Part shown: piece after piece, positions 1-30,008 of the stretch
How positions within the stretch are numbered: position 1 is the stretch's first letter
How the letters are laid out: each line of letters starts with the position of its first letter
Assembly (NCBI GenBank): GCA_004376205.1
Contig: SOKG01000164.1
Location: forward strand, 1-47,837
Reading direction: 5' to 3'
Origin: Dehalococcoidia bacterium
Lineage (GTDB): Bacteria > Chloroflexota > Dehalococcoidia > SZUA-161
DNA length: 47,837 nucleotides
Position numbers and translations under genes: made by a program
The notes under the pieces: model-generated
The model's input: only the letters and a program-made list of their open reading frames with translations
What the model was told of the DNA's origin: nothing
Database searches by the model: none

Positions 1-66
1 GGTTGGTATTCGACAACCCCTGGCGTACCCATGGCCACCTCCTGGTTGGCTGTGATGGCAAAGCGT

Positions 67-450: not shown

Positions 451-565
451 CGCCTTGGTTTCCTTTTTGGCAGCAGTAGCGCGCTTCTTAGGGGCCTTTT
501 CTTCCTCTGTGGTCATCTCACTAGCCTCCTCTTTCTGCTTTTCCGGGGCATCCTTGGCGGTTGCT

Positions 566-1105
566 TCATCGCTGGACATCTGTTGTTCCTCCCAATTGTT
601 GAATTCTGGCATTCAGTACCGAGCTGAGGCCACGCATGTTGCCGCTGAGCACGTTCTGCAGCGAAACGATGGGGCTCAGCAGTAGTCCCAGTAGTATTGC
701 TCGCAATACCTCTATGGAGGGCAAGGTGGCGAGTCTTTTTACTTCCTCAGAGCCGATCAGTTGGCTATCAATAAGCCCCCCCTTTATGCTGAGGGTCGTT
801 TTCGAAATGCGGATGTAGTCAGCCAGGGCCTTCGCCAGTTGAAGGATGTCCTCACTGCCAAAGGCGAGCGCTGTCGGTCCTGTAAGCAGTTGGAAAAGCT
901 CTTGTTTGCCTGCATTTTCAGCAGCGAATTTGGCCAACCTGTTTTTGACCACGTGGTATTCGGTGCCTATATTCCGTAGCTGGTGTCGTAGTTCCGACAT
1001 CTCGGCTACCGAGAGCCCACGGTAGTCGGTGGCGATTACAAACTTGCTCTGGGAGAGCAGTTCAGTCAGTTGGTCTACAATCTGGGGCTTTTTCTTGGTG
1101 GTCAT
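566..1105 (-). CDS. rplJ: 50S ribosomal protein L10
   Basis: [40 protein letters not shown] is L10-like. AGGAGG lies 9 nt upstream of the ATG at 1105. Synteny with rplL. Confidence 0.93.
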
Positions 1106-1270
1106 CCCTTTTATCCTCCTACTAAAAAAGAGTCCTTGGTGCCTGCAGCACAAGGACTCCTCTCATTCAAGAAGAATTGCCTCGGCAGGCACAGGTTTAA
1201 GCCACTACGGCACCTGCTGTCTTGGGCCTTATTCAGTTTTTATCGGAAGTAACGCCAGGGGTTCAGGCCC
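1106..1270 (-). promoter_or_regulatory. rplJ 5' leader, candidate L10-leader type attenuator
   Basis: 165-nt untranslated gap before rplJ. It contains a strong hairpin plus U6 just before the SD, and an upstream 8-nt segment complementary to the terminator (1185-1192 vs 1139-1146). Confidence 0.55.
1124..1159 (-). terminator. Intrinsic terminator/attenuator hairpin upstream of rplJ
   Basis: Minus strand reads GAGTCCTTGTGCTGCAGGCACCAAGGACTC followed by TTTTTT, about 12 bp of GC-rich stem. It ends about 18 nt before the rplJ ATG. Confidence 0.7.
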
Positions 1271-2449
1271 TCAGCGGCCGGGCACACCGAAAATGCCCAT
1301 GCTACACATAAAGGTGCCTGGATGTCCTCCCTGGTTATGAGCTATTCCCAGTTCAACGTTCTTAAGCTGGCGGGATGGCTCTTCGGCTTTGCCCTGGACC
1401 TGCTTATATATCTCGTAGACTTCTCTGATGCCACTGGCTCCCACAGGGTGGCCGAACGACTTCAGGCCGCCGCCAGCATTAAAGGCTACCTCGCCGTCTA
1501 AAGCAAACGTGCTGGCTTCGATATCGTATTTGGCTGTTCCACGCTCGCAGAAGCCCATAGCCTCATAGCACATGAGCTCCGCGATGGAGAAGCAGTCGTG
1601 ACACTCCACTAAATCTATCTCTTTACGGGGATCTTTGATTTCGGCCTGCTGATATACCTGCTGGGTTGCCCTGTAGGTTTCCTCCCAGTGCACCCAGTCA
1701 TAGTCGGTCATCATCTTGCCGCAGCCGGGCCCTGCTGAATTGCCCAATGCCTTGACGGTGATATAGTCCTTCCTGAATTTTGGAGCGTCCTCAGCACGGC
1801 AGAGGATGGCAGCGGCGGCGCCATCGGTTACCCCGCAGCAGTCAAAGAGCCCCAGAGGCCAAGCGATTATGGGGGCGCCTAGGGCTTGTTCTACGGTTAT
1901 CTCACGGCGCAGATGAGCCTTGGGATTGCGGGCACCGTTATAGTGGCTCTTCACCGAGATCATAGCGAGGTGCTTTTTCTCCGCTCCGTACATAGCGAAG
2001 TACTTGGTGGCTGCCAGGGCATAGCGCCCCGGCGGGGTCGCCTGGATGCCAAACACCGGATGTACGCCACCCATCGGCTCGCCAGAGCCCAGACCTCCGA
2101 CACCTCGGTCCTTGGTCTTTTCAAAGCCAACGCAAAGGACGAGGTCATAAGCCTTGGCAATCAGTGCATAAGTAGCTGCCCTGATGGTCTCCAGGCCGGT
2201 GCCGCAGAGGTTCTCCACCCTGACAATGGGGATATAGTCCAGCTTGAGGGGATAGGCAAGGCTTTGGCCGCCGGCGAATCCAAGGGTGCCGGACCATGCC
2301 GCCTGGATATCTTTGGGTCCGACCCCGGCATCTTCGAAAGCTTCGTAGGCTGCTTCCACAACCAGGTCCCAGGCGCTGCAATCCCAGCGCTCCCCGAACT
2401 TACTGCAACCCATACCTACGATAGCAACTTTATCTTTAATGCTTTCCAT
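1271..2449 (-). CDS. Thiolase-fold protein, SCP2/archaeal acetoacetyl-CoA thiolase-like
   Basis: 392 aa. Motifs RVENLCGTG (nucleophile Cys), VECHDCFSI (HDCF) and GHPVGASGIRE are present. AGGAGG SD. Start lies 3 nt after the upstream gene stop. Confidence 0.85.
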   Translation of the reverse strand: MESIKDKVAIVGMGCSKFGERWDCSAWDLVVEAAYEAFEDAGVGPKDIQAAWSGTLGFAGGQSLAYPLKLDYIPIVRVENLCGTGLETIRAATYALIAKAYDLVLCVGFEKTKDRGVGGLGSGEPMGGVHPVFGIQATPPGRYALAATKYFAMYGAEKKHLAMISVKSHYNGARNPKAHLRREITVEQALGAPIIAWPLGLFDCCGVTDGAAAAILCRAEDAPKFRKDYITVKALGNSAGPGCGKMMTDYDWVHWEETYRATQQVYQQAEIKDPRKEIDLVECHDCFSIAELMCYEAMGFCERGTAKYDIEASTFALDGEVAFNAGGGLKSFGHPVGASGIREVYEIYKQVQGKAEEPSRQLKNVELGIAHNQGGHPGTFMCSMGIFGVPGR

Positions 2450-2452
2450 CTT

Positions 2453-3877
2453 TCATCCTCCTTGGGCCACCCGCAGAGGACGGCATTTCCAGTAGTAGTT
2501 GCGAATACCGCGTTCGCTGTGCATCCATCTGAAGGTGAGCTCGACCGGCATCCCGTCTTCAACCTTATCAGGGTCGCGGTCTGTCATCTGGGCGTAGAAC
2601 CTTCCTCCTTCATCGAAGTCGAGGATACATAGGATGATCGGGGGGTCGAGGCTAGGTCCGAGGAAATCCTTGCTATAGGTGAAAAGCTTGGCGCTTCTCT
2701 CTGCGAGGCGGATCTCCTCGAACTGGTCCTTGCTCTGGCAGTACATGCAGATCCTTTGCGGCGGGAAGTTGATATTGCCGCAGGCCAGACATTTCTCGCC
2801 ACGGCAGTTGATGTTCCACCTGCGATCCCGCCACGAGATAGTGGCTGCGGACTGATTCTCCCACTGAGTCCATCCCTGGAGGAGGCCACGGTAGCGCAGG
2901 TACTTATCGTAATTGGGCAGAGACAACTTTGATGCCAGATGGTATTTTATCCCTCGCCGATCTCTTGCCTTTTCTATTCCCTCAGTGACGGTGAGGACGA
3001 AGGCATCTGCGCCATCACTGTAGTTGGCGACCAGCATTTTTTCACCAGCCTTTGCTTCCTCCAGCGCAGCGACTAGCATCATTAGTGTATAAGCAGTGCC
3101 GGTATTGCCTACCGTTGAGAACATGCTGTCTTGAAGTTGGGTATCGGCGTCAATATCGAGCCTTCTTGCCAATTGCTGATGTCTCCTGCCATTGAAAGCG
3201 TAGAGGACAAACTTGGAGAAATCGGCTGGCGTCAGCCCGCATTTCTCCATGACGTCCTTAACAGCCTGTTGAGTGTTTTCCAGATAGCCGTGGGTAATGA
3301 TAAAGCGATCCTCCCATGATCTGACGAAAGTGTCGCCATCCAATCGCCACAGGTCCATTATGTCGTCATAGTGAGTATGACTTCCGTCTACGTTTGCGAC
3401 TACGTCGGAGTTACCGAGAAGGATGGCGGCGGCTCCGTCTCCAAATGCCCCTTCGTACTCAGTGGAAGGCTGCCCTAATCGGCAGTCTGAGGCAACTACC
3501 AGAACCTTTTTTGCTGAGCCGGCAGCGATGGCATCCAGGGCAGCTCGCATGGCGATGGTTCCCGCTCTCAGGGAGTTGGCAAAGTCGGCGGTTATGGTGC
3601 TGCGTTTGAGGTCAAGCGCTTCAGCGACCAGGTTGGCACACTGCTTTTCTTTGTAAGGAGTCGTGGTGGATGCCAAGAATAGGCCTTCGACTTCAGCCCG
3701 GTCAATGCCCTGTAGGCAATTGTTCCCGGCTTCCACTGCCATGGTAACGCTGTCTTCATCGAAGTTGGCGACTGCTCTCTCTCCCGCGATAGGTATGCCG
3801 CCCCATGTTTGCCAGATTAGATCACGGCCTAGTCGGTAAATGGGTATATAAGCGCCGCAGGAAACAATCCCTGCCAT
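2453..3877 (-). CDS. HMG-CoA synthase-like domain fused to DUF35 (Zn-ribbon + OB fold); catalytic landmarks substituted
   Basis: 474 aa. The N-terminus GAYIPIYRLG, DEDSVTMAVEA and VGNTGTAY resemble archaeal-type HMGCS. The C-terminus CLAC-x10-CMYC plus OB-like tail resembles DUF35. The expected Glu/Cys/His positions read T71/L103/Y226. Confidence 0.8.
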   Translation of the reverse strand: MAGIVSCGAYIPIYRLGRDLIWQTWGGIPIAGERAVANFDEDSVTMAVEAGNNCLQGIDRAEVEGLFLASTTTPYKEKQCANLVAEALDLKRSTITADFANSLRAGTIAMRAALDAIAAGSAKKVLVVASDCRLGQPSTEYEGAFGDGAAAILLGNSDVVANVDGSHTHYDDIMDLWRLDGDTFVRSWEDRFIITHGYLENTQQAVKDVMEKCGLTPADFSKFVLYAFNGRRHQQLARRLDIDADTQLQDSMFSTVGNTGTAYTLMMLVAALEEAKAGEKMLVANYSDGADAFVLTVTEGIEKARDRRGIKYHLASKLSLPNYDKYLRYRGLLQGWTQWENQSAATISWRDRRWNINCRGEKCLACGNINFPPQRICMYCQSKDQFEEIRLAERSAKLFTYSKDFLGPSLDPPIILCILDFDEGGRFYAQMTDRDPDKVEDGMPVELTFRWMHSERGIRNYYWKCRPLRVAQGG

Positions 3878-3944
3878 TTAGGTCTCCTTTCGCAAAGTCA
3901 TGCCCGACTATCTGCCGTGGCTGAAATGGCAACAAAGCCGACCG

Positions 3945-4658
3945 TTAGGCGGTAGTCAGAGAAAGGGTTGGAGTTAGATCAAGCTTAATTCCCGGTCCCA
4001 TTGAGGTTGTTAGTGAGGCACTTCTAATAAATTGACCCTTGGCGCCACTGGGCTTTGCCTTGACCACGGCATCAACTATTGCGGCCAAGTTTTCCAGTAG
4101 TTTCTCGTCATCGAAGCTGATCTTGCCTAGCGGTGTATGGATGATGGCGGTTTTGTCCAACTTGAATTCCACCCGGCCCTTGCGAACGTCTGCAATAACC
4201 TGGGGTAGATCGCCGGGTTGTGCGACGGTGCCTGATTTAGGATTTGGCATCAGCCCTCGTCGCCCCAAGACCTTGCCCAGTTTGCCGATCCTGGGCATCA
4301 TATCTGGGGTGGCGATAGCGACATCGAATTCGAGCCAGCCATCCTCAATCTTCTTAATCAACTCGTCCCCGCCGACATAGTCGGCTCCGGCGTCTCGGGC
4401 GGTCTTTTCTGACTCGCCTTGAGTAAGGACCAAGACTCGCACTGCCTTGCCCAGGCCGTTGGGCAGTAGAGCTATTCCACGAACTTGCTGGTCAGCATGG
4501 CGGGGGTCAACCCCCATACGCAGGTGGAGCTCAACTGTCTCGTCGAATCCGGCGTAGGACACTTGCTTAGCAAGGCTGATCGCCTCTTGGGGATGATATA
4601 GCTTATTCCCATCCAACTTATTTAGTGCTTCAAGATACTTTTTACCGTGTTTAGCCAT
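3945..4658 (-). CDS. rplA: 50S ribosomal protein L1
   Basis: [21 protein letters not shown] is L1-like. Lies 7 nt after rplK. Confidence 0.96.
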
Positions 4659-7850: not shown

Positions 7851-9280
7851 GGCTTCCTGTATCTGAACACTGTCTCTCCGGGTGAGTCCTCTAAAGTGAC
7901 GCCGAGTTCTTTGAGATCGCTTCGGATTCCATCGGCAAGCTGCCATTTCTTCTCCTGTCGCAGACCGGCTCGTTTTTCTGTTAGCAGGCGGATGACGCAC
8001 TCGGCGCTTGTCGTCTCTTTTGCATCCAAGCCGTATTTGGCAGCAAGCTCGATGAGGGTTTGAGGCGGGATTTCGGGCGCTGTCGGCTCAATTTCCAGCG
8101 TCAAACCGAGTACTTCGGCAAGCTCTCGGAGGACATGATATGCTTTGCGTACATCCAGCCCCTCAGTATGCCCGCGATTTATCTCCCGGGCAAGGTCAAA
8201 CAGAACAGCTGTGGCTTGCGGAGTGTTGAAGTCATCGTCCATGGCCTGAATGAACCGCTCTCTGTAAGGCTCAGGTTCTAAGAGAGTAGTTGCCGCCGCA
8301 TCGTGGTCGACGTGAGCGGCGTGAAACAGTCTTTCCCGCCCTCTCTCCATTGAAGCTATGACTTCATCCGAGTAGATGATGGGGCTGCGGTAGTGGGAGC
8401 TGAGCACCCAGAGCCTTATAGCGTCGGCGCTATACTTCGCCAGCGCTTCGCTCACAGTTATCAGCCTGCCCGAGGACTTGCTCATCTTGTCCTCGCCCAG
8501 TTGCATCAGGCCGTTGTGCAGCCAGTAGCGTACGAAGGGCGTAACCGAGGTGAAAGACTCGGACTGTGCGATCTCGTTTTCATGATGAGGGAAGATGAGA
8601 TCCTGGCCGCCGCCGTGAATGTCCACCGTATCGCCGAGGTATTCCAGGGACATGGCGCTGCATTCGATGTGCCACCCCGGCCTTCCCTGACCCCATGGGC
8701 TCTGCCAATATGGCTCGCCGGGCTTGGCTGCCTTCCATAGGGCGAAATCCATGGGGTGCTCCTTCGCTTCGCTGACATCGACGCGGGCACCAGCCATCAT
8801 ATCCTCCAGATCACGACGGCTGAGCTTGCCGTAGTCGGGGTCGCTTGTCACCCGAAAATAGACGTCGCTCCCTGCCTGATAGGCGTGCCCCTTTTGTATC
8901 AGTCCTTCGACCATCGCTATGATCTTGGGGATTTCTTCAGTAGCTCTGGGATAAACATCGGCTCGTTTCACGTTGAGGGCGTCCATGTCGGTGAAGTACT
9001 GGGTGATAAACCCTTCCGCCAGCTCTTGGGGTGGGATGCTTAGCTCATTGGCTCGTGTAATGATCTTATCATCGATGTCGGTGAAGTTTTGTATGTGGTT
9101 GACTCTGTAGCCGCGAAATTCGAGGTAGCGCCTGATGGTGTCGAAGACGATATAGCTCATGGCGTGGCCGAGGTGGCAGGGGGCATAGGGAGTGATCCCG
9201 CAGACGTACATTCTTACCGTATCGCCCTGTGGGACGAAATCCTCTCTTTGACCGGAAAGAGTGTTATATATCTTGATCAA
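7847..9280 (-). CDS. cysS: Cysteinyl-tRNA synthetase
   Basis: Class I HIGH variant (CHLGHAMSY) and KMSKS motif. 477 aa. Confidence 0.96.
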   Translation of the reverse strand: MIKIYNTLSGQREDFVPQGDTVRMYVCGITPYAPCHLGHAMSYIVFDTIRRYLEFRGYRVNHIQNFTDIDDKIITRANELSIPPQELAEGFITQYFTDMDALNVKRADVYPRATEEIPKIIAMVEGLIQKGHAYQAGSDVYFRVTSDPDYGKLSRRDLEDMMAGARVDVSEAKEHPMDFALWKAAKPGEPYWQSPWGQGRPGWHIECSAMSLEYLGDTVDIHGGGQDLIFPHHENEIAQSESFTSVTPFVRYWLHNGLMQLGEDKMSKSSGRLITVSEALAKYSADAIRLWVLSSHYRSPIIYSDEVIASMERGRERLFHAAHVDHDAAATTLLEPEPYRERFIQAMDDDFNTPQATAVLFDLAREINRGHTEGLDVRKAYHVLRELAEVLGLTLEIEPTAPEIPPQTLIELAAKYGLDAKETTSAECVIRLLTEKRAGLRQEKKWQLADGIRSDLKELGVTLEDSPGETVFRYRKP

Positions 9281-9750
9281 GCTTCCTCCAAGAGAGCCAC
9301 AGAGTAGGCAGCCACCCCTTCTTCTCTTCCGGTGAAACCTAAGCCTTCGGTGGTGGTGGCTTTTATTCCCACCTGGCTTTTGCCGATAGACAAGGCTTGA
9401 CTTATGTTCTGCCTCATCTGGTCAACAAAAGGGTGGATAAGAGGGCGCTCGGCGATTATTGTGGCATCTATATTGCTGATGCGCCAACCCTGTTCTCTAA
9501 GCAGGTTGCGGGTGTGGCCGAGGAGAACGATGCTGGAAATGCCCTCGTAGGCAGGGTCGTTAGCGGGGAAGTGGGTTCCGATGTCTCCCAGGGCCGCGGC
9601 CCCCAGTAGAGCATCTATTATGGCGTGCACCACAACATCGGCATCGCTCCAGCCCTCAAGCCCTTGTGCAAACGGTATCTCTACGCCCCCCAGAATGAAG
9701 GGGCGTTCCCCGGTTAGTCGATGGGCATCGTAGCCGATACCGATTCGCAT
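9277..9750 (-). CDS. ispF: 2-C-methyl-D-erythritol 2,4-cyclodiphosphate synthase
   Basis: MRIGIGYDAHRL and the DALLGAAALGDIGTHFP motif. 157 aa. ATGA overlap with cysS. Confidence 0.95.
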   Translation of the reverse strand: MRIGIGYDAHRLTGERPFILGGVEIPFAQGLEGWSDADVVVHAIIDALLGAAALGDIGTHFPANDPAYEGISSIVLLGHTRNLLREQGWRISNIDATIIAERPLIHPFVDQMRQNISQALSIGKSQVGIKATTTEGLGFTGREEGVAAYSVALLEEA

Positions 9751-10460
9751 GGCACTCCAGAGTTGAAGAATGCTTTCTCGTTGTGTGCCAAGAAGACCTT
9801 GGCTATTGCTAGGTCATCGGGGGTGGTCACTTTTATGTTTTGATAAGACCCCATGTAGACCTCGACCTTATGACCTAGTTGTTCCAACAGGGCAGCGTCA
9901 TCTGTGACCTCACAATCCACCTGACGATAGGCTTCCGCTATGAGGTTGTAGCGAAAAACCTGGGGTGTCTGCGCAGCCCACAGGCTCTGGCGCGCCGGTG
10001 TCTGTTGTACAAAGCGGTGGCGCGAAACGATCTTGATGGTATCCTTGACTGGCACTGCGGCGATTGCGGCACCGCTTTCTTGGGCTGCGATCAGCCCTCG
10101 CTCGACGAGATCAGCATTGACACATGGTCTAGCGCCATCGTGGATCACCACCCAATCGCAATCTGCTAGCCTCCGCAACCCTTCTCTAACCGAGTCCTGA
10201 CGTCTTAATCCCCCGGGACATACGGCAACTACTTTGGGCCAGCTATGCTCTTTTGCCAGATTACGTCCCTGCGCCAGACTCTTTCTTGCCAGCACGATGA
10301 CTATCTGATCGACCGAAGGGCAATTCTGGAAAACGTTCACTATCCGCGCCAGCAAGGGCTCTTCCCCCAATTGGGCAAAGACCTTGTCTATTCCTCCCAT
10401 GCGGTTGCTTGTGCCGGCAGCGACGATTATGGCGCCGACTTTATCGCCTACTTTTTTCAT
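9714..10460 (-). CDS. ispD: 2-C-methyl-D-erythritol 4-phosphate cytidylyltransferase
   Basis: AIIVAAGTSNRMGG and IHDGARP motifs. Overlaps ispF by 37 nt. Confidence 0.93.
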   Translation of the reverse strand: MKKVGDKVGAIIVAAGTSNRMGGIDKVFAQLGEEPLLARIVNVFQNCPSVDQIVIVLARKSLAQGRNLAKEHSWPKVVAVCPGGLRRQDSVREGLRRLADCDWVVIHDGARPCVNADLVERGLIAAQESGAAIAAVPVKDTIKIVSRHRFVQQTPARQSLWAAQTPQVFRYNLIAEAYRQVDCEVTDDAALLEQLGHKVEVYMGSYQNIKVTTPDDLAIAKVFLAHNEKAFFNSGVPCESVSATMPID

Positions 10461-11667: not shown

Positions 11668-12150
11668 TCATCGCAGTCTGCTGACTGCGATGATGATGCC
11701 TAGAGCAAGCGCAATCAAGACATATACGTTGAGAAAAGAATGTACAAAGCTCAGGTGCGGTGCCTCGAGCAGGCTTCTAATGGTATAGCTCACCACCATA
11801 CTTGTACCCGCGATCACCTGCAGTCTGAGACCGCGCTTTCGGTTGACGGAGAGGCTCACCACTTCGCCGATGGCATAGCCAATACCGGCTGCAATAATGA
11901 GCGATAAGAAGCCGCCCAAAGGAATAAAAGGCCAAATAGCACCCAGTACTGAAGCGGTAATCAGGCCGGCAGCAATTGCCCTTGCGTAGAAGACGGCTGA
12001 AACATCATAGACAGGCAGCCGCTTCAGGGCGGCGCATTCGGGGCAGCGCGCACCTATTGGTGTCTGAACCAAGCACTTGGGGCAGATGAACTGCCCGCAT
12101 TTACTGCACCTGAGGTTGGTCTCGGTCTCGGGGTGAAGGGCGCATCTCAT
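11668..12150 (-). CDS. Membrane protein with N-terminal double Zn-ribbon (B-box-like)
   Basis: CALHPETETNLRCSKCGQFICPKCLVQTPIGARCPEC (8 Cys/His ligands) followed by about 4 predicted TM helices. 4-nt overlap with fabZ. Confidence 0.7.
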   Translation of the reverse strand: MRCALHPETETNLRCSKCGQFICPKCLVQTPIGARCPECAALKRLPVYDVSAVFYARAIAAGLITASVLGAIWPFIPLGGFLSLIIAAGIGYAIGEVVSLSVNRKRGLRLQVIAGTSMVVSYTIRSLLEAPHLSFVHSFLNVYVLIALALGIIIAVSRLR

Positions 12151-12605
12151 TCCTGCACTCTAGCTGGTGCTTGCTCCGGGTTGGCGATGGCGAAGGTCAA
12201 CTCACCTTCAGCAACAGTCTTTCCTTCCACAGTCGCTTTAGCCGTACCCTTACCTATGGAACTTCGCATCTTGGTGAGCTTCATCTCTAACCTTAGGCTG
12301 TCTCCAGGAAACACTGGCCCACGAAAACGAAGGTTGTCGACCCCAGCGAAGAGGATGCTCTTGCCCTTATGTTGAGGCAAGCTCAATACTGCCACGGCAC
12401 CGACTTGAGCCAGAGCTTCGATAATAAGCACTCCGGGGAAGATAGGGTAGCCTGGAAAATGACCTTGGAAGCAGAATTCTCCGGCAGTAACATTCTTGAT
12501 TCCCACGGCTCCCTCGCCGGGCTGTAGGTCGATGATCTTGTCCACGAGGAGAAAAGGCCAGCGGTGGGGGATTATCTGTTGAATTTCTCTAGCACCTAGC
12601 ATCAT
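12147..12605 (-). CDS. fabZ: 3-hydroxyacyl-ACP dehydratase FabZ
   Basis: HRWPFLLVDKI and GHFPGYPIFPGVLIIEALAQ hotdog-fold motifs. Confidence 0.93.
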   Translation of the reverse strand: MMLGAREIQQIIPHRWPFLLVDKIIDLQPGEGAVGIKNVTAGEFCFQGHFPGYPIFPGVLIIEALAQVGAVAVLSLPQHKGKSILFAGVDNLRFRGPVFPGDSLRLEMKLTKMRSSIGKGTAKATVEGKTVAEGELTFAIANPEQAPARVQE

Positions 12606-22571: not shown

Positions 22572-22602
22572 TTGATTGAAAGGATGGTTTGCGGAGGGGA
22601 AG

Positions 22603-23073
22603 ATGCCACGACGAGCTCGAGCGATCAAGAGGACGACAATACCTGACGCTAAGTATCACAGCAGGGATCTTGCCCGGTTCATCAACAAGGTTATGACGCG
22701 CGGCAAGAAGAGCACGGCGGAGCATCTTGTTTACGACGCTCTGGATGTAGTCGAGAGGGAACTGAAGAAGAATCCTTTGGATGTCTTCGAGCAGGCAATG
22801 AAGAACGTGACCCCGGTTGTCGAGGTCAAGCCACGCAGGGTCGGTGGCGCAACCTATCAAGTGCCGGTCGACATCGGATCGGATCGCCGTGTTGCCTTAG
22901 CGATGCGCTGGTTGCTGGCTTCAGCAAGGGCGCGCAAGGGCAAACCAATGTCAGAGAGGCTGGCTGCAGAGCTAATAGATGCTTTTCGGGGACAGGGGAT
23001 CACGATAAAGAAGCGGGAAGATACCCACCGTATGGCTGAGGCAAACAAGGCTTTTGTCCACTACAGATGGTAA
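22603..23073 (+). CDS. rpsG: 30S ribosomal protein S7
   Basis: MPRRARAIKRTTIPDAKYHS is S7-like. GGAGGGGAAG precedes the ATG at 22603. Confidence 0.96.
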   Translation: MPRRARAIKRTTIPDAKYHSRDLARFINKVMTRGKKSTAEHLVYDALDVVERELKKNPLDVFEQAMKNVTPVVEVKPRRVGGATYQVPVDIGSDRRVALAMRWLLASARARKGKPMSERLAAELIDAFRGQGITIKKREDTHRMAEANKAFVHYRW

Positions 23074-23130
23074 CGAGGTTTGGGTATTTTGGTTGATCGT
23101 AAAGTCTGCTTGGCCGAAAGGGAACAGATT

Positions 23131-25206
23131 ATGGTGCGGGCATTACTGCTGGAGCGGGTGAGGAATATCGGGATCATCGCTCACATCGATGCTGGAAAGA
23201 CAACTGTCACTGAGCTAATCCTGTATCACACTGGTCGAATCTATAAGGTGGGGCAGGTGGATGAGGGGACAGCGGTGATGGATTGGATGGAACAGGAGCG
23301 TGAGCGTGGGATCACTATTACCGCGGCTGCCACTAGCTGTGAATGGGCTGGCCATCAGATCAATATTATCGATACTCCGGGGCATGTGGACTTCACTGCT
23401 GAAGTGGAACGCAGCCTGAGGGTTATCGATGGCGGGGTGGTGGTGTTCGACGCCCTGGCTGGTGTTGAGCCACAGTCGGAGACAGTCTGGCGCCAGGCAG
23501 ATAGCTATCGTGTTCCCAGGATATGCTTCGTCAACAAGATGGACCGCGTTGGCGCCGACTATTTTGCAACAGTGCAGATGATCAAAGATCGTCTCAGGGC
23601 CAACCCTGTGCCACTACAGATGCCTCTGGGCGCAGAGGCATCCTTTAAGGGCGTTATTGACCTCGTTGAAGAGAAAGCCTGGGTTTTCCCCGAGGGTCCT
23701 GACGCAGAGCCGGAGGAGGTGCCTATACCCGAGGAATACAAAGACGCCGCTGCTCACTACCGGGAGAAATTGATCGAGCAGGTTGCTGAGAACGATGAGG
23801 CTCTTATGGGTGCATATGTCGAGGGTGAGGCTATCGCTGCCCCGGAGATTAAGGCAGCACTGAGGAGGGCAACTCTGTCGACGAGGGTTGTCCCCGTGCT
23901 CTGTGGCAGCGCCGTGAAGAGCAAGGGGATACAGCCTATGCTGGATGCTGTAGTTGACTACTTACCTTCGCCCTTGGATGTGCCCCCGGTTCAGGGCATT
24001 GACCCCAGGACGGGCAAAGAGAGCTTTCGCGAAGCTAGTGATGAAGCCCCGTTCTCCGCCCTGGCTTTCAAGATAGTCTCCGATCCTTTCGTTGGCCGCC
24101 TGGTCTATCTACGGGTATATTCAGGTGTGGCCCGGACTAGCTCGCAGGTTTTGAATACCGCTAGGGAGCGTAAAGAGCGCCTGGGGCGGTTGCTCCAGAT
24201 GCATGCCAACCGACGAGATGAGGTGGATGAGATAAGCTGTGGCCAGATCGCTGCCGCTGTTGGTCTCAAGAGCACCTTCACCGGAGACACCATATGTGAC
24301 CCTGCCAAGCCTATCATTCTGGAAGCGATCACGTTCCCAGAGCCGGTTATCTCTGTTGCCATCGAGCCCAGGACTAAGGCCGATCAGGATAGGATTGGCG
24401 ATGCCCTGAACAAGCTGGCGGACGAGGATCCCACCTTCAAGAGCCGCTATGAACAAGATACAGGGCAGACCATACTCTCAGGCATGGGGGAGCTTCACAT
24501 TGACATTATCGTCGATAGGTTGGTACGAGAGCACAAAGTGAATGCCAAGATAGGTAAGCCGCAGGTTGCTTACAAGGAGACGATCACCATTCCTGTGCGC
24601 GCCGAAGGGAATTTTGTCAGGCAGACTGGCGGGCATGGCCAGTACGGTCACGTCTGGCTTGAGCTCGGGCCGATGGAACAAGGCGGTGGCTTTGAGTTCG
24701 TCAACAAGATACCAGGTGGGGTGATACCCAAGCAATATATTCCTGCTGTGGAGCAAGGTGTCAGAGAGGCGATGGAGAGCGGTGTACTCGCTGGGTACCC
24801 CATAATCGACGTCCGTGTCACTCTGTGCGACGGCAGGTATCAAAGGTTTGACTCTTCAGAACTAGCCTTTAAGATGGGGGGCTCGATGGCTCTAAGGGAG
24901 GCTGTGCGCAAGGCCAAGCCCATACTCCTTGAGCCGATCATGAAGCTTGAGGTGGCAACTCCTAAAGAGTTCCTTGGGGACATAATCAGTGATCTCAATG
25001 CTAGGAGAGCCAGGGTTGAGGCCGTTGAGTTACGGGTTTGGACTCACATAATTCGCTGCTTCTTGCCACTGGCTGAGAGCTTTGGGTATGCTACTGACCT
25101 TAGGTCGATAAGCCAGGGAAGGGCAACATATTCCATGGAGTTTCATCATTATCAGGAAGTTCCCAAGGAGCAGGCAGGGCAGATAAGCGCCAAGGTGAGG
25201 GGCTAG
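23131..25206 (+). CDS. fusA: Elongation factor G
   Basis: [23 protein letters not shown] and NKMDR motifs. 691 aa from ATG 23131. str-operon position. Confidence 0.96.
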
Positions 25207-25515
25207 ATGCCGAAGCAGAAGATACGTATCAAGCTCAAAGCATACGATCACCGCATCCTGGATCAGTCCGCAGTGCAAATTGTAGAGGCGGCGGAGCGCA
25301 CAGGAGCAGCGGTGGTTGGTCCTGTGCCCCTTCCAACTCATATAAAGAAATTCTGCGTGATACGCTCTCCTCATGTGGATAAGGATTCCCGCGAGCAGTT
25401 TGAGATTAGGACTCATAAGAGGCTAATCGATATCATGGATCCTACAACGAAGACCATCGATGCGCTGACCACGTTGAACCTGCCCGCAGGGGTGGACATC
25501 GAGATAAAGCTCTAG
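25207..25515 (+). CDS. rpsJ: 30S ribosomal protein S10
   Basis: [17 protein letters not shown]. The ATG abuts the fusA TAG. Confidence 0.97.
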
Positions 25516-25529
25516 TTGGGTTGTAGCGG

Positions 25530-26153
25530 ATGCTTAGTGGACTCATCGGCCGGAAAATAGGCATAACACAGGTATTTACCGAAGGCGGCACGGTGGAAGC
25601 GGTAACTGCCATCGAGGCTGGTCCCTGTACTGTGACGCAGATCAAGAGTGTTGGCAAGGAAGGCTACAACGCGATCCAGCTTGGCTTTGGCGAGGCGAAG
25701 CGGCTCAATTCCCCTGAGCAGGGGCATCTGGGAAAACTGGGTCTGTTCAAGCACCTGAGAGAGTTCAGGGTCAAAGATACTTCTGACATTGAATTGGGAC
25801 ATCGGATTGATGTCAGCCTGTTCCAGCCTGGGGACTTGGTGGATGTCGTCGGGGTGTCCAAGGGGAAGGGCTTTGCTGGCACGGTCAAGCGCCATCACTT
25901 CGCTGGCGGGCCCAAGACCCACGGGCAGTCTGATCGCCACCGTGCTCCTGGTTCTATCGGGGCTGGCACCGACCCAGGACGGGTGCTCAAGGGGCAGAGG
26001 ATGGCAGGACATATGGGAAATCGGAGGGTCACGGTGAAGCATATCAAGGTAGTTAAGGCTGACCCAGATCGTAACCTGCTCTTGGTCAAAGGGGCAGTGC
26101 CTGGGGCCAGGAACGGGTTGCTGGAGATAAGAAAATCCGGGGTTCGCGACTAA
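25530..26153 (+). CDS. rplC: 50S ribosomal protein L3
   Basis: [13 protein letters not shown] and [12 protein letters not shown] motifs. Confidence 0.97.
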
Positions 26154-26168
26154 GAGCTGGGAGGCGCT

Positions 26169-26822
26169 TTGCAGGTTTCGGTATATAATATTGAAGGCCA
26201 GGCAATTGACAAGATCGAACTCGATGAGACTGTCTTCGGTGTGCCACCAAATGAGGCAGTGGTTCACCAGGCCCTGGTGAGGCAGCGGGCAAACTCTCGC
26301 GTGGGAACCGCGAGTACCAAGAGCCGTGGTGAGGTCTCGGGAAGCACCCGCAAGCTGTTTCGCCAGAAGCACACGGGATTTGCACGGGCTGGCAGCAGGA
26401 GACCGCCGACACGCCGTGGCGGTGGGGTAGCTTTCGGCCCTCGCCCCCGAAGCTACAGACAGGCGATGCCCAAGAAGATGAGACGCTTAGCCTTGAGGTG
26501 CGTCCTCTCAGCCAAGGTAGCTGACGGTGAGCTTCTGGTGATTGACTCGTTTGGGCTGGAGCAGCCCGGGACTAAGCGAGTAGTGCATGTTTTGAAGACC
26601 TTGGGAATTGAACCTTCAGTTTTGCTGGTCACCGCCGAGCCAGATATGAATGTAGTCAAGTCTGCTCGCAATATCGACAGGGCAAAAACGCTGCCCGCTG
26701 CTATGTTAAACGTCGTCGACCTGCTGTCACACAGAATGCTGCTCATGACTGTTGATGCCGTACGCTGTGTCGAGGCAATATGGGGCAGGAAGCAGGTAGT
26801 TGCCGAGGCTCAGGCCTCTTAG
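26169..26822 (+). CDS. rplD: 50S ribosomal protein L4
   Basis: [36 protein letters not shown] start. S10-operon order. Confidence 0.95.
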
Positions 26823-26831
26823 AGGAAAAGG

Positions 26832-27116
26832 ATGCACAGCTACGAGGTACTGCGCCGACCGCTTATTACTGAGAAGAATACGATGCTTGTTGAGCAGAAC
26901 AAGTATGCCTTTGAGGTAGCCCGAAATGCCAACAAGCCTCAGATCAAGGATGCGGTGGAGAAGGCGTTCAAGGTGAAGGTTGCTTCAGTGAACGTGATGT
27001 GCGTGCCGGGTAAGATGCGCCGCGCTGGCAGGCAGCGGGGGATGACCTCGCCCTGGAAGAAGGCAGTGGTTACCTTGGAGCCGGGACATAAAATCGAGCT
27101 TTTTGAAGGTATATAG
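26832..27116 (+). CDS. rplW: 50S ribosomal protein L23
   Basis: LRRPLITEKNT and KPQIKDAVEKAFKVKV. Confidence 0.95.
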   Translation: MHSYEVLRRPLITEKNTMLVEQNKYAFEVARNANKPQIKDAVEKAFKVKVASVNVMCVPGKMRRAGRQRGMTSPWKKAVVTLEPGHKIELFEGI

Positions 27117-27155
27117 ACATGAATATGGATGGAGTCCTTGTAGAGGAGGCCAACT

Positions 27156-27980
27156 TTGGCACTTAAGGCATATCGCCCCACGTCCCCGGGACAGAGGGGT
27201 ATGGTCGGTGCCGATTTCTCCGAGATCACCAAGAAAAAGCCGGAGAAGTCACTGCTCTTGCCCTTGAAGAAGAAGGCAGGGAGGAGCAATCAGGGGAGAA
27301 TAACGGTGCGCCACCGTGGCGGCGGGGCCAAACGGCGGCTTAGGATTATTGACTTTAAGCGGGACAAGTTTGGAGTTCCAGGCAAAGTAGCCTCCATCGA
27401 GTACGACCCCAATCGCTCGGCCAATATCGCTCTGATCAATTACGTCGATGGCGAGAAGCGCTATATCCTGGCCCCTGCCGGACTCAGGGTGGGTAATACC
27501 ATATGCTCGGGTGAGGGTGCGGAAATAAAGCCTGGTAACGCTCTGCCGTTAAGGTTGATTCCTCTAGGCACTGCGGTCCACAATATCGAGCTTAACCGTG
27601 GCAAGGGAGGGCAGATGGTGCGTAGTGCTGGGGCCTCCGCTCAGGTTATGGCCAAAGAGGCTGGCTATACCTTAGTGAGATTGCCCTCGGGGGAACTTCG
27701 TCGAGTCAATGGGGAGTGTCTGGGTACTGTGGGGCAGGTGGGAAACATTGACCATAGCAATATCGTTCTGGGCAAGGCGGGCCGCAGAAGGCTCAGGGGG
27801 TGGCGGCCTACAGTGCGCGGTTCAGCGATGACGCCTCGAGATCATCCCCATGGTGGTGGCGAGGGACGGTCGCCTATTGGACACCCCGGACCGAAAACCC
27901 CCTGGGGCAAGCCAGCAATGGGCTATAGGACGAGGCGCAATAAGCGCAGCGAGAGGCTGATTTTGCGGAGAAGGAAATAG
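27156..27980 (+). CDS. rplB: 50S ribosomal protein L2
   Basis: [18 protein letters not shown] and HPHGGGEGR motifs. TTG start. Confidence 0.97.
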
Positions 27981-28001
27981 CGCCTTAGGAGGTCTAAAGG
28001 A

Positions 28002-28307
28002 GTGTCGAGGTCGATCAAGAAAGGCCCTTTCATTGACGCCAACTTGCTCAAGAAAGTGGAGATGCTCAATCGAACTGAACTGAAGGCGGTGATCAAGACT
28101 TGGTCACGTGCATCCACCATCATCCCGCAGATGGTGGGGTTCACAATCGGGGTGCATGACGGCAGGAGGCACGTTCCTATCTTTATCACCGAGAACATGG
28201 TGGGCCATAAGCTGGGAGAGTTTGCCCCAACCAGGACCTACAGAGGACATTCTGCCTCGTCCGAGAGGATAACCCGGCTAAGGAAGTCCCCGACAGGGAA
28301 AAGGTAG
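28002..28307 (+). CDS. rpsS: 30S ribosomal protein S19
   Basis: [11 protein letters not shown] and [19 protein letters not shown] start. Confidence 0.96.
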
Positions 28308-28332
28308 GTCTTGCTAGGCGAGGATTGAAGAA

Positions 28333-28665
28333 GTGGAAGTAGTAGCAAGCGCGAGGCAGATAAGGGTATCGCCGCGAAAAGTGCGCCTGGTGTTGGACAC
28401 AGTGCGCGGGAAGAAGGTAGATGAAGCCTTGGCTATACTCAGCTTCTTGCCTACACCGGCGGCTCGAACTGTGGCTAAGGTAGTCAAGTCGGCAGTTGCC
28501 AATGCTGAAAACAATTACCAGATGACGCCGGCACAGCTCAGGATCGTCAAGACCTTTGCCAACGAAGGACAAACCCTGAGGAGATACCGCGCTGGCGCTC
28601 GGGGGAGGGTAAACCCTTTTCGCCGACGCTTCAGCCATATTACAATCATTGTAGAGGAGGAGTGA
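28333..28665 (+). CDS. rplV: 50S ribosomal protein L22
   Basis: ARQIRVSPRKVRLV. GTG start. Confidence 0.95.
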   Translation: MEVVASARQIRVSPRKVRLVLDTVRGKKVDEALAILSFLPTPAARTVAKVVKSAVANAENNYQMTPAQLRIVKTFANEGQTLRRYRAGARGRVNPFRRRFSHITIIVEEE

Positions 28666-29352: not shown

Positions 29353-29367
29353 CATAGGAAGGGAGCA

Positions 29368-29796
29368 ATGCTTCAGCCAAAGCGAGTAAGGTATCGTAAA
29401 GTTCATCGCGGGCACCGCAGGGGCAAAGCGCAGGTTAGTAATACCGTGGCCTTTGGCGATTTTGGGCTTCAGGCGCAGGAGTCAGCTTGGCTCACTAGCC
29501 GCCAGATTGAGGCAGCGCGGCGTGCTATAGTGCACAGCGTGAGAAGGGGGGGCAAGGTTTGGATTCGCATTTTCCCCGACAAGCCTGTAACCTCGAAGCC
29601 AGCGGAGACCAGGATGGGTAGCGGCAAAGGCTCCCTCGACCATTGGGTGGCGGTGGTTAGACGAGGCAGGATCTTATTCGAGATATCCGGAGTCAGGGAG
29701 GATGTGGCTCGGGAGGCGATGCGCCTAGCCTCGCATAAACTGCCAATCCAGACCAAGTTCGTTGGTAGAGAGATCCTGGTTGAAGTAGCTTCGTAA
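29368..29796 (+). CDS. rplP: 50S ribosomal protein L16
   Basis: [15 protein letters not shown] and RMGSGKGS. Confidence 0.97.
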
Positions 29797-29808
29797 CTGG
29801 TGATACCA

Positions 29809-30006: not shown

Positions 30007-30008
30007 CT

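What the first reader, a model, noticed from the sequence alone, without database searches (positions are those of the whole stretch)
1106..3944. Two-gene thiolase module wedged between rplKA and rplJL
The secE-nusG-rplK-rplA-rplJ-rplL order is among the most conserved gene strings in bacteria. Here 2.6 kb of metabolic-looking genes sit between rplA and rplJ. The two genes are translationally coupled: there is a 3-nt gap and the thiolase SD lies inside the upstream gene end. They start only 67 nt after the rplA stop, and I can see no terminator in that gap. They end 165 nt before rplJ, with just a leader/attenuator in between. The sequence therefore suggests co-transcription with ribosomal protein genes, meaning growth-rate-coupled expression of an uncharacterised thiolase complex.
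Basis: partly seen in the sequence, partly recalled or inferred. Interest (0 to 1): 0.72.

Follow-up and report, generated by a model that had tools for sequence, protein, structure and literature searches.

The report
Thiolase pair embedded in ribosomal operon
A sediment Dehalococcoidia bacterium carries, between ribosomal genes rplA and rplJ, an active thiolase and a catalytically dead "HMG-CoA synthase"-DUF35 partner; the module type is already known, its operon position seems unreported, and co-expression is untested.

Summary
On the minus strand the order is rplK, rplA, a 67-nt spacer, a 474-aa gene (FUS), a 3-nt gap, a 392-aa thiolase (THL), 26 nt, the L10 leader, rplJ, rplL.

FUS is an HMG-CoA-synthase-like domain fused to a DUF35 zinc-ribbon/OB domain. 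It lacks the synthase's catalytic Glu, Cys and His (T71, L103, Y226), as do all 115 full-length homologues checked. THL keeps its Cys82, HDCF and GHP motifs. The pair therefore belongs to the bacterial "ACAT/HMGS-DUF35" class (Liao et al. 2026). A Pseudomonas member of that class cleaves acetoacetyl-CoA and makes no HMG-CoA, so the database name "HMG-CoA synthase" is probably wrong.

The placement is fixed in the window's clade: rplA lies upstream in 25 of 25 loci and rplJ downstream in 24 of 24. Within one Dehalococcoidia subclade it recurs as one to three tandem modules, or as unfused thiolase+DUF35. It is absent from roughly 45 other Chloroflexota loci.

The insert always lies between the rplA stop and the L10 leader. 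I found no promoter or terminator motif in the spacer. Co-transcription with rplKA is therefore plausible but unproven. Elsewhere the family sits among beta-oxidation genes. Interest is moderate.

The parts
3945..4658 (-). rplA (ribosomal protein L1), the last gene of the L11 (rplKA) unit, immediately upstream of the insert
   Evidence: Pfam Ribosomal_L1 4.7e-64 and TIGR01169 316 bits
3878..3944 (-). 67-nt rplA-FUS spacer. The SD AAGGAG lies at 3884-3889. No promoter or terminator motif and no conserved RNA fold were found.
   Evidence: Scan. Single-sequence fold z = -2.05. RNAalifold on 30 orthologous spacers gives 0 pairs. Length is 65-70 nt in 24 of 25 clade loci.
2453..3877 (-). FUS: a 474-aa fusion of an HMG-CoA-synthase-like (KAS III fold) domain and a DUF35 domain, predicted to be a non-catalytic scaffold subunit
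   Evidence: Pfam ACP_syn_III(_C), zf-ChsH2 and OB_ChsH2_C. PDB 6esq_I 1.6e-38 and 6esq_E 1e-15. AF2 pLDDT 81.7, pTM 0.86. Best fold hits are 6esq_I/J at TM 0.86-0.87, PhlA at 0.83 and MucA at 0.82.
2873..3877 (-). HMGS-like domain (aa 1-335) lacking the catalytic Glu, Cys and His: T71, L103 and Y226. N258 is retained.
   Evidence: Alignment to archaeal HMGS E82/C114/H238/N270. In 115 homologues the columns read T 112, L/I/V/M 115, Y 106, N 107. dN/dS is 0.08-0.20.
2456..2842 (-). DUF35 domain (aa 346-474): a zinc ribbon C363xxC366...C377xxC380 (2738-2791) plus an OB fold
   Evidence: Pfam PF12172 and PF01796. 6esq_E 1e-15, ChsH2 DUF35 6ok1_B and BbsA 7pxp_A. Cys positions. dN/dS is 0.05-0.09.
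2450..2463 (-). FUS/THL junction. The thiolase SD AAGGAGGA sits inside the FUS 3' end, followed by the TGA stop, a 3-nt gap and the ATG at 2449.
   Evidence: Read directly from the sequence
1271..2449 (-). THL: a 392-aa SCP2/archaeal-type thiolase with intact catalytic motifs (C82 in ENLCGTG, H284-D-C-F287, G333-H-P), predicted to be the catalytic subunit
   Evidence: NCBIfam PRK06157 476.7 bits, above the 403 cut-off. PDB 6esq_A 8.3e-55. Motifs. dN/dS is 0.03-0.05. Identity across the clade is 88-98% (typically 91-94%), higher than for the adjacent r-proteins.
1245..1270 (-). 26 nt between the THL stop and the start of the L10 leader. This is too short for a canonical promoter and lacks the TTGCAT-N17-TAnAnT element seen in L003, L005 and L083.
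   Evidence: Alignment A2 and scan
1117..1244 (-). Ribosomal protein L10 leader (autoregulatory leader of rplJL). Its terminator-like hairpin plus U-run lies at 1124-1160.
   Evidence: Rfam RF00557 60.5 bits, gathering 44, full length. Fold z = -4.33. The same element lies directly before rplJ in 8 module-bearing loci (L003, L004, L005, L083, L084, L093, L010, L020) and in L006, and in 11 further uninterrupted loci.
566..1105 (-). rplJ (L10), the first gene of the L10 unit downstream of the insert. rplL follows at 67-450, or to 579 with its N-terminal extension.
   Evidence: Pfam Ribosomal_L10 9.6e-27 and NF000955 155 bits; L12 TIGR00855 144 bits

Best explanation
The two genes encode a heteromeric thiolase complex of the bacterial "ACAT/HMGS-DUF35" type.

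THL is the only catalytic subunit. It is an SCP2/archaeal-type thiolase with Cys82, HDCF and GHP intact. FUS is a catalytically dead HMG-CoA-synthase-like domain fused to a DUF35 zinc-ribbon/OB domain. It most likely serves as the scaffold, and as part of the shared CoA-binding chamber, as the homologous subunits do in the solved archaeal, PhlACB and MucABC complexes.

The most likely reaction is reversible thiolysis of a short 3-oxoacyl-CoA, giving acetyl-CoA. Acetoacetyl-CoA is the default guess for the substrate. This would be the last step of a beta-oxidation-like or fermentation route, not HMG-CoA synthesis.

The module sits exactly between the rplA stop codon and the L10 leader. It is most likely transcribed as the distal part of the rplK-rplA message, giving constitutive, ribosome-linked expression. 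Transcripts would either stop at, or read through, the L10-leader attenuator into rplJL.

What is shown: gene order, domain architecture, loss or retention of catalytic residues, purifying selection, conservation and recurrence of the placement, and absence of recognisable promoter or terminator motifs.

What is inferred: complex formation, substrate and direction of the reaction, and co-transcription.
For: Identity of the module:
- Pfam and NCBIfam hits.
- The best PDB sequence matches of all three parts are the three subunits of the 6ESQ complex.
- The AF2 model matches the HMGS, PhlA and MucA subunits at TM 0.82-0.87.

Dead synthase site:
- E82 is T71, C114 is L103 and H238 is Y226 in the window protein and in 115 of 115 full-length homologues.
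- The scores are below both archaeal-type NCBIfam HMGS cut-offs: 239.3 against 244, and 181 against 353.
- The MEP-pathway genes ispD and ispF lie 5 kb away.

Active thiolase: motifs are intact and dN/dS is 0.03-0.05.

Precedent: the PfACAT/HMGS-DUF35 complex has the same architecture and residue pattern. It cleaves acetoacetyl-CoA and makes neither acetoacetyl-CoA nor HMG-CoA (PMC12960953).

Catabolic role. Paralogous FUS+THL pairs elsewhere sit next to:
- enoyl-CoA hydratase, 3-hydroxyacyl-CoA dehydrogenase and a TRAP transporter (L134);
- acyl-CoA dehydrogenases, carboxyltransferases, an SDR and an acyl-CoA ligase (L089);
- family III CoA-transferases and ECH (L091);
- ECH (L087 and L133);
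- 2-hydroxyacyl-CoA dehydratase-type proteins and 2-oxoacid:ferredoxin oxidoreductase (L131).

Placement and co-transcription:
- Synteny holds in 25 of 25 and 24 of 24 clade loci, with a 65-70 nt spacer.
- The same junction carries 1-3 modules in L093, L094 and L084.
- The leader always lies distal to the insert.
- The leader starts 10-50 nt after rplA in uninterrupted relatives.
- No promoter or terminator motifs were found.
- Base composition is native.
Against: - No transcript data were available. Consensus scans cannot exclude a non-canonical promoter, or one inside rplA.
- L003, L005 and L083 have a promoter-like element upstream of the L10 leader. The downstream coupling to rplJL is therefore not general.
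- Codon adaptation does not separate r-protein genes from other genes in this organism, so it gives no expression evidence.
- No hydratase or dehydrogenase partner genes occur in the 47.8-kb window, so the pathway is undefined.
- N258, T71 and Y226 are strongly conserved, so a non-HMGS catalytic or ligand-binding role for the FUS domain is not excluded.
Confidence: 0.6

Rival explanations
1. [quoted passage not shown]
For: The best PDB matches are the three 6ESQ subunits. Sources name homologues "hydroxymethylglutaryl-CoA synthase". NF003274 scores 239.3, just under its 244 cut-off. N258, the equivalent of N270, is retained.
Against: The catalytic Glu, Cys and His are replaced by T, L and Y in the window protein and in 115 of 115 homologues. 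The quadruple mutant of the archaeal enzyme at these positions makes no HMG-CoA, and the Pf fused homologue makes none either (PMC12960953). ispD and ispF of the MEP pathway lie in the window.
Confidence: 0.04
2. A PhlACB/MucABC-like Friedel-Crafts C-acyltransferase that tailors a secondary metabolite.
For: PhlA and MucA are the next-best sequence and fold matches of the FUS N-domain. They likewise lack the synthase nucleophile.
Against: THL keeps the HDCF motif, which PhlC and MucB have lost (PMC12960953). THL matches the archaeal thiolase at 189 bits but PhlC at only 73-80 bits. No PKS or NRPS genes occur anywhere in the window, which holds housekeeping genes only.
Confidence: 0.04
3. The pair is an autonomous transcription unit merely parked at the boundary between two classical operons (rplKA and rplJL). 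Its expression is not tied to ribosomal proteins.
For: In E. coli rplKA and rplJL have separate promoters (textbook knowledge), so the boundary tolerates insertions. Other cargo occupies the same junction in relatives: an HpaB/AbfD-like gene in L011, and further inserts in L024, L039, L056 and L068. A promoter-like element precedes the L10 leader in L003, L005 and L083.
Against: No promoter-like or terminator-like motif occurs in the rplA-FUS spacer in the window, L005 or L083. The spacer is short and length-constrained across the clade, and it is also short (33-138 nt) in other lineages. In uninterrupted relatives the leader starts 10-50 nt after rplA.
Confidence: 0.25
4. An ACP-independent condensing enzyme for lipid or fatty-acid synthesis, like the DUF35-scaffolded archaeal fatty-acid synthase. 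It would be co-regulated with ribosome synthesis in the manner of the rpmF-plsX-fab cluster.
For: DUF35 scaffolds a ketothiolase-based fatty-acid synthase in Sulfolobus (bioRxiv 10.1101/2024.07.05.601840). The placement in an r-protein operon fits a growth-coupled anabolic role. The rpmF-plsX-fab precedent is from my own knowledge.
Against: No ketoreductase, dehydratase or enoyl reductase gene lies next to the module. A FabZ-like gene in the window (12147-12605) suggests ordinary type II fatty-acid synthesis. The family's other contexts are catabolic. The Pf complex does not condense acetyl-CoA.
Confidence: 0.07

Closest known systems
PfACAT/HMGS-DUF35 complex of Pseudomonas fluorescens, representing about 1,000 uncharacterised bacterial HMGS/ACAT/DUF35 loci (Liao et al. 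2026, Nat Commun 17:2196, PMC12960953)
   Same: The HMGS-like and DUF35 domains are fused in one polypeptide. The synthase catalytic residues are lost. The adjacent thiolase retains Cys, HDxF and GHx. There are no PKS or NRPS neighbours.
   Different: N270 is retained here (N258), whereas the paper describes the whole E-C-H-N tetrad as lacking. The window module is embedded between rplA and the L10 leader, and it occurs as 1-3 tandem modules in relatives. The paper has no occurrence of "Chloroflex", and its only two "ribosom" hits include a "non-ribosomal" reference title. Direct sequence similarity to the Pf proteins could not be measured.
[quoted passage not shown] 2018, cited via PMC12960953)
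   Same: The same three structural components are present. These are the best sequence matches (1.6e-38, 1e-15, 8.3e-55) and the best fold match (TM 0.86-0.87).
   Different: The synthase active site is dead here (T, L, Y in place of E, C, H). DUF35 is fused rather than a separate subunit. The organism has MEP genes, so the complex cannot pull the condensation towards HMG-CoA.
PhlACB (PDB 5M3K/5MG5) and MucABC (PDB 9VBO) acyltransferase complexes
   Same: They have a non-catalytic HMGS-like subunit plus DUF35 plus one catalytic thiolase-fold subunit.
   Different: Their thiolase subunit has lost HDxF and works without CoA thiolysis, and they sit in biosynthetic gene clusters. Here HDCF is intact and the context is housekeeping.
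DUF35-scaffolded SCP2-type thiolases and aldolases of catabolism (BbsAB, PDB 7PXP; Ltp2-ChsH2, PDB 6OK1)
   Same: A DUF35 zinc-ribbon/OB domain partners an SCP2-type thiolase-fold enzyme acting on CoA esters. Unfused thiolase+DUF35 pairs occupy the same rplA|rplJ junction in L010 and L020.
   Different: Those systems have no HMGS-like domain. Sequence similarity is much weaker (BbsA 1.4e-5; BbsB 1e-41 against 8e-55 for the archaeal thiolase).
rpmF-plsX-fabHDG-acpP cluster of E. coli and other bacteria (own knowledge, not tested here)
   Same: It is a precedent for metabolic genes with a thiolase-superfamily member co-transcribed with a ribosomal protein gene.
   Different: It involves a different r-protein operon, different enzymes, an anabolic role and experimentally mapped transcripts.

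Membership tests
Bacterial fused HMGS-DUF35 / ACAT thiolase complex (PfACAT/HMGS-DUF35 class, PMC12960953) | HMGS-like domain and DUF35 (zinc ribbon + OB) fused in one polypeptide, encoded next to a thiolase | tested here: met
   Pfam domains. 6esq_I aligns to aa 3-333 and 6esq_E to aa 347-468. AF2 pTM is 0.86. The 3-nt gap to the thiolase is read.
Bacterial fused HMGS-DUF35 / ACAT thiolase complex (PfACAT/HMGS-DUF35 class, PMC12960953) | Loss of the HMGS E-C-H-N catalytic tetrad | tested here: met
   E is T71, C is L103 and H is Y226. N is retained as N258, so 3 of the 4 residues are lost. The same pattern holds in 115 homologues.
Bacterial fused HMGS-DUF35 / ACAT thiolase complex (PfACAT/HMGS-DUF35 class, PMC12960953) | Thiolase subunit retains the catalytic Cys and the HDxF and GHx motifs | tested here: met
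   C82, H284-D-C-F287 and G333-H-P
Bacterial fused HMGS-DUF35 / ACAT thiolase complex (PfACAT/HMGS-DUF35 class, PMC12960953) | Thiolytic cleavage of acetoacetyl-CoA, with no HMG-CoA or acetoacetyl-CoA formed from acetyl-CoA | not testable with these tools
   This is a biochemical assay, reported only for the P. fluorescens complex
Bacterial fused HMGS-DUF35 / ACAT thiolase complex (PfACAT/HMGS-DUF35 class, PMC12960953) | Direct sequence or phylogenetic relatedness to the characterised P. fluorescens proteins | not tested
   The Pf sequences are not in the paper's text, and no supplements are held
Archaeal thiolase/HMG-CoA synthase/DUF35 complex (mevalonate pathway entry) | Catalytic Glu, Cys and His of HMG-CoA synthase | tested here: not met
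   T71, L103 and Y226
Archaeal thiolase/HMG-CoA synthase/DUF35 complex (mevalonate pathway entry) | Score above the curated HMGS family cut-offs | tested here: not met
   NF003274 scores 239.3, below 244. TIGR00748 scores 181.1, below 353.35. TIGR01835 scores 84, below 360.
Archaeal thiolase/HMG-CoA synthase/DUF35 complex (mevalonate pathway entry) | The organism uses the mevalonate pathway | tested here: inconclusive
   ispD and ispF (MEP pathway) are in the window. The whole genome could not be inspected.
PhlACB/MucABC Friedel-Crafts acyltransferases | Thiolase-fold catalytic subunit lacking HDxF, in a biosynthetic cluster context | tested here: not met
   HDCF is present. The window contains only housekeeping genes.
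Ribosomal protein L10 leader (Rfam RF00557) | Covariance-model score above gathering, located directly upstream of rplJ | tested here: met
   60.5 bits against 44, model positions 1-138, at 1117-1244. The same holds in relatives.
Membership of the rplKA(-JL) transcription unit | A continuous transcript from rplA through FUS-THL, with no internal promoter or terminator | tested here: inconclusive
   Only motif scans and comparative spacing were possible. Transcript mapping cannot be done here.

The most novel reading that the evidence does not exclude
In one subclade of (often small-genome) Dehalococcoidia, the rplA|L10-leader junction may act as a selected "expression platform". Core acyl-CoA catabolic genes would be wired into the ribosomal-protein operon there. 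The cargo seen is one to three thiolase/pseudo-HMGS-DUF35 modules, unfused thiolase+DUF35 pairs, an AbfD/HpaB-like gene, and nearby an Fe-ADH plus an ALDH. Carbon and energy catabolism would then be expressed in proportion to ribosome synthesis without dedicated regulators. A more radical version is that the DUF35/OB-zinc-ribbon part has a translation-linked role, as reported for the Sulfolobus DUF35 protein Trf.
Probability: 0.3. Interest if true: 0.6.

Novelty: new member of a known kind. Interest (0 to 1): 0.45.

Why it matters
First, it corrects an annotation. Thousands of Chloroflexota proteins labelled "HMG-CoA synthase" lack the catalytic triad. They should not be taken as evidence for a mevalonate pathway in metabolic reconstructions of sediment Dehalococcoidia.

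Second, the large "orphan" class of bacterial HMGS/ACAT/DUF35 loci gains a natural setting. Here the module is under very strong purifying selection and is fixed in a housekeeping operon. This argues that the complex is a core enzyme rather than an evolutionary leftover. The neighbouring genes of its paralogues point to beta-oxidation-type thiolysis.

Third, if co-transcription is confirmed, this would be a clear case of metabolic genes stably embedded in one of the most conserved ribosomal gene strings. That would be useful for understanding operon evolution and regulation in streamlined, uncultured bacteria.

Tried and rejected
- Codon adaptation index against 14 r-protein/EF genes. r-protein genes (mean 0.734) and other genes (0.726) do not separate in this organism, so FUS at 0.730 and THL at 0.773 say little about expression.
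- GC and GC3 as a horizontal-transfer signal. The values are native-like, so recent transfer was rejected.
- A conserved RNA structure in the length-constrained rplA-FUS spacer. RNAalifold on 30 orthologous spacers gave 0 pairs, and the single-sequence z-score was only -2.05. Rejected.
- Promoter and terminator consensus scans of the window, L083 and L005. Nothing was found in the rplA-FUS spacer. The only strong terminator-like hairpin on the coding strand is the L10-leader attenuator.
- Literature. There were no papers combining Dehalococcoidia with hydroxymethylglutaryl-CoA synthase. Papers combining rplA, rplJ and thiolase were irrelevant. Papers on Dehalococcoidia, thiolase and beta-oxidation were not specific.
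- Vogeli 2018 (PMC5879682) is not held. The supplements of PMC12960953 are not held, so the P. fluorescens sequences could not be compared.
- Monophyly of the junction-located FUS copies. The NJ trees interleave them with catabolic-context copies and the deep branches are poorly resolved. One ancient insertion with losses therefore cannot be told apart from repeated recruitment.


Full report
**1. Observation**

The window is a housekeeping region of a Dehalococcoidia metagenome-assembled genome. The same contig occurs as GCA_030588785.1 JAUUWZ010000075 and in JGI sample 3300022538.

On the minus strand the order is three tRNAs, tuf, rpmG, secE, nusG, rplK, rplA, ORF474, ORF392, rplJ, rplL.
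- rplA ends at 3945.
- A 67-nt spacer follows.
- ORF474 is 2453-3877.
- A 3-nt gap follows. The downstream gene's SD (AAGGAGGA, 2463-2456) lies inside the upstream gene's end.
- ORF392 is 1271-2449.
- A 165-nt spacer follows, then the rplJ ATG at 1105.

That 165-nt spacer contains a full-length Rfam L10_leader at 1117-1244 (60.5 bits against a gathering score of 44). The leader has a strong hairpin plus U-run at 1124-1160.

Consensus scans find no promoter-like or terminator-like site on the coding strand in either spacer, apart from that attenuator.

**2. What the genes are**

ORF392 (THL) is an SCP2/archaeal-type thiolase.
- It scores 476.7 bits on NCBIfam PRK06157, above the 403 cut-off.
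- Its best solved relative is the thiolase subunit of the Methanothermococcus thiolase/HMGS/DUF35 complex, 6esq_A, at 8.3e-55.
- It keeps the nucleophile Cys82 (ENLCGTG), H284-D-C-F287 and G333-H-P.

ORF474 (FUS) is a fusion of two parts.
- Residues 1-335 match the HMG-CoA synthase subunit of the same archaeal complex (6esq_I, 1.6e-38). PhlA is nearly as good a match (5m3k_A, 2.6e-34).
- Residues 347-468 match the DUF35 subunit (6esq_E, 1e-15). The zinc ribbon is C363xxC366...C377xxC380.
- An AlphaFold2 model built on 40 homologues has pLDDT 81.7 and pTM 0.86. It is most similar to the HMGS subunit of 6ESQ/6ET9 (TM 0.86-0.87), then PhlA (0.83) and MucA (0.82).

**3. The synthase domain is catalytically dead**

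I aligned FUS to the archaeal enzyme, whose tetrad is E82-C114-H238-N270 (numbering from PMC12960953).
- FUS has T71, L103, Y226 and N258 at these positions.
- Among 115 full-length homologues at 52-94% identity, none has the Glu, Cys or His. The columns read T in 112, L/I/V/M in all 115, and Y in 106. N is kept in 107.
- The protein scores below all three HMGS equivalog cut-offs of NCBIfam.
- The MEP-pathway genes ispD and ispF lie 5-6 kb away in the same window.

The source annotation "hydroxymethylglutaryl-CoA synthase" is therefore very probably wrong.

The domain is not decaying. Its dN/dS is 0.08-0.20. The DUF35 domain has 0.05-0.09 and THL 0.03-0.05. THL's value is as low as or lower than those of the flanking r-protein genes.

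**4. Comparison with what is known**

Liao et al. 2026 (PMC12960953) describe this configuration.
- They mined 1,030 bacterial loci with co-localised HMGS, ACAT and DUF35. Of these, 1,001 have no secondary-metabolism neighbours.
- Their representative, P. fluorescens PfACAT/HMGS-DUF35, has a fused HMGS-DUF35 that lacks the tetrad and a thiolase that retains Cys, HDxF and GHx.
- In vitro it forms neither HMG-CoA nor acetoacetyl-CoA from acetyl-CoA. It does cleave acetoacetyl-CoA, and H294Y in the HDxF motif abolishes this.

The window module meets every sequence-level criterion of that class. One difference is that N258 is retained.

It fails the defining feature of the archaeal mevalonate complex, which is the catalytic triad. 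It also fails that of the PhlACB/MucABC acyltransferases, which is loss of HDxF together with a biosynthetic cluster context.

**5. Synteny survey**

I used the window's L1 protein to fetch 80 species-representative Chloroflexota loci and located the window's proteins in them.
- 58 loci have rplA directly followed by rplJ, with a gap of 124-427 nt.
- The FUS+THL insert is present in the three closest species: L003, L004 and L005.
- In metagenome contigs of the same clade (FUS 72-94% identical), 25 of 25 loci with enough flank have rplA immediately upstream. The spacer is 65-70 nt in 24 of them.
- In the same set, 24 of 24 loci have rplJ downstream.
- A 1.75-Mb contig (L083) shows the same order, from ispD to radC.

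The same junction carries related cargo in more distant lineages whose L1 is only 67-72% identical.
- L093 has one module.
- L094 has two modules.
- L084 and L085 have three modules plus an extra thiolase, about 9.8 kb in all.
- L012 has a FUS at 47% identity directly after rplA.
- L010 has an unfused thiolase+DUF35 pair, and L020 has two such pairs.

On a NusG+L11+L1 neighbour-joining tree, all these lineages fall in one Dehalococcoidia subclade. They are interleaved with uninterrupted lineages. The roughly 45 Anaerolineae and other Chloroflexota loci have none.

FUS and THL trees agree that the window pair is the orthologue of module 2 of L084, so the two genes travel together. Junction copies interleave with copies from other genomic contexts, and the deep nodes are unresolved.

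**6. Clues to function from paralogues**

Outside the ribosomal junction, FUS+THL pairs sit in acyl-CoA catabolic contexts.
- L134: TRAP transporter, enoyl-CoA hydratase and 3-hydroxyacyl-CoA dehydrogenase.
- L089: two acyl-CoA dehydrogenases, two carboxyltransferases, an SDR, an AMP-ligase and ABC transporter genes.
- L091: family III CoA-transferases, ECH, SDR and an acetyl-CoA hydrolase/transferase.
- L087 and L133: ECH.
- L131: 2-hydroxyacyl-CoA-dehydratase-type proteins, 2-oxoacid:ferredoxin oxidoreductase and a 2-hydroxyacid dehydrogenase.

Together with the Pf assay, this supports thiolysis of a short 3-oxoacyl-CoA as the reaction.

Thiolase condensation is thermodynamically unfavourable unless a downstream enzyme pulls it. 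This is established biochemistry, and it is the rationale for the archaeal complex as described in PMC12960953. Here that downstream enzyme is dead.

**7. Transcription architecture (inferred)**

- In every lineage examined except L094, where no match reached the threshold, the L10 leader lies between the last inserted gene and rplJ.
- In uninterrupted relatives the leader begins only 10-50 nt after the rplA stop in most loci. This leaves no room for a canonical intergenic promoter. It suggests that rplK-rplA-leader-rplJ-rplL is one unit with an internal L10-responsive attenuator.
- The insert sits exactly between the rplA stop and the leader. In the window only 26 nt separate the THL stop from the leader.
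- The rplA-FUS spacer has a constrained length but no conserved promoter, terminator or RNA fold. Only its 3' part is conserved (GACTnTGCGAAAGGAGAGCCAAATG), which includes the SD.
- L003, L005 and L083 have longer THL-leader spacers. These carry a conserved TTGCAT-N17-TA(C/A/G)A(C/A)T element just before the leader, a plausible rplJL promoter. The window and L004 lack it.

In the window's lineage, rplJL may therefore depend more on read-through from upstream. All of this is inference from sequence, and no transcript data exist here. The mechanism assumed for the leader is L10(L12)4-dependent attenuation. It is known from Bacillus and is stated from my own knowledge.

**8. Verdict**

Co-transcription with rplKA is the most economical reading but is unproven.

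The complex is not a mystery enzyme. It is a new member of the recently described fused HMGS-DUF35/ACAT class. In the literature I could search, the following appear to be unreported:
- the stable, clade-wide embedding of this module, and of tandem arrays of it, inside the rplKAJL string;
- the very strong constraint on its thiolase;
- the systematic mis-annotation as HMG-CoA synthase.

I rate interest at about 0.45. The physiological pathway and the regulatory consequence remain open.

Noticed in passing
window 451-612 (minus strand), upstream of the canonical rplL start at 450; also L003, L004, L083, L100, L104, L120, L014, L020: rplL (L7/L12) carries a conserved in-frame Glu/Lys/Ala-rich N-terminal extension. 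It is about 43 aa from the likely start ([10 protein letters not shown]... at 579, overlapping the rplJ stop) and 54 codons to the upstream end of the open frame at 612. The amino-acid pattern is conserved across the clade. L014 (139 codons) and L020 (82 codons) have much longer repetitive versions. It is absent in L006, L016, L022, L030 and L094. Gene callers call the long form.
   Followed up: partly
L084 3261-12749 (and L085); L094 3304-8579; L132 1-6716: Tandem arrays of paralogous FUS+THL modules occur. L084 has three modules plus an extra thiolase between rplA and rplJ. L094 has two modules. L132 has three modules, but its upstream flank is not visible.
   Followed up: partly
L010 3614-5205; L020 7746-11049: Unfused thiolase+DUF35 pairs occupy the same rplA|L10-leader junction, one pair in L010 and two in L020. 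Their thiolases are only about 32% identical to the window's.
   Followed up: partly
L011 3844-5866; L009 3559-6711: Sister lineages carry other metabolic cargo in the same r-protein cluster. L011 has an HpaB/4-hydroxybutyryl-CoA-dehydratase-family protein plus a DUF1893 protein between rplA and rplJ. L009 has an Fe-alcohol dehydrogenase, an aldehyde dehydrogenase and a 147-aa ORF between rplK and rplA. Together with a thiolase these resemble pieces of a 4-hydroxybutyrate to acetyl-CoA route, which is speculative.
   Followed up: partly
L003 ~8400-8440, L005 ~4600-4640, L083 ~8870-8905 (alignment A2, columns ~347-385): A conserved sigma-70-like element TTGCAT-N17-TA(C/A/G)A(C/A)T lies directly upstream of the L10 leader, and is probably the rplJL promoter. 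It is missing from the window and from L004. The longer spacers of L003 and L083 also contain G/C-rich repeats (GGGGG.../CCCCC...).
   Followed up: partly
L119 1500-1735: One clade member has a 233-nt rplA-FUS spacer instead of 65-70 nt. The extra DNA includes a GC-rich inverted repeat (GCCCCCGCGTACGCGGGGGGC), which may be a small inserted element or a terminator.
   Followed up: no
window 1-66 and L001 9846-10556; L083 10522-11217: rpoB and rpoC do not follow rplL in this clade. A RadC/UPF0758 gene does. The classical rplKAJL-rpoBC string is therefore already broken at a second point.
   Followed up: no
window 9277-10460, 12147-12605 and 22576-39935: ispF and ispD (MEP pathway) and a FabZ-like dehydratase lie close to the module. 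The str/S10/spc/alpha ribosomal operons (rpsG, fusA, rplD ... secY, adk, map, rpsD, rpoA) run on the plus strand. recA-recX-rny-ymdB and dnaE lie in between.
   Followed up: partly
PMC6996347 (literature): The Sulfolobus solfataricus "translation recovery factor" Trf (Sso2509) is a DUF35 protein. It is structurally closest to the DUF35 subunit of the archaeal thiolase/HMGS complex. This is a possible, untested link between DUF35 proteins and translation.
   Followed up: no
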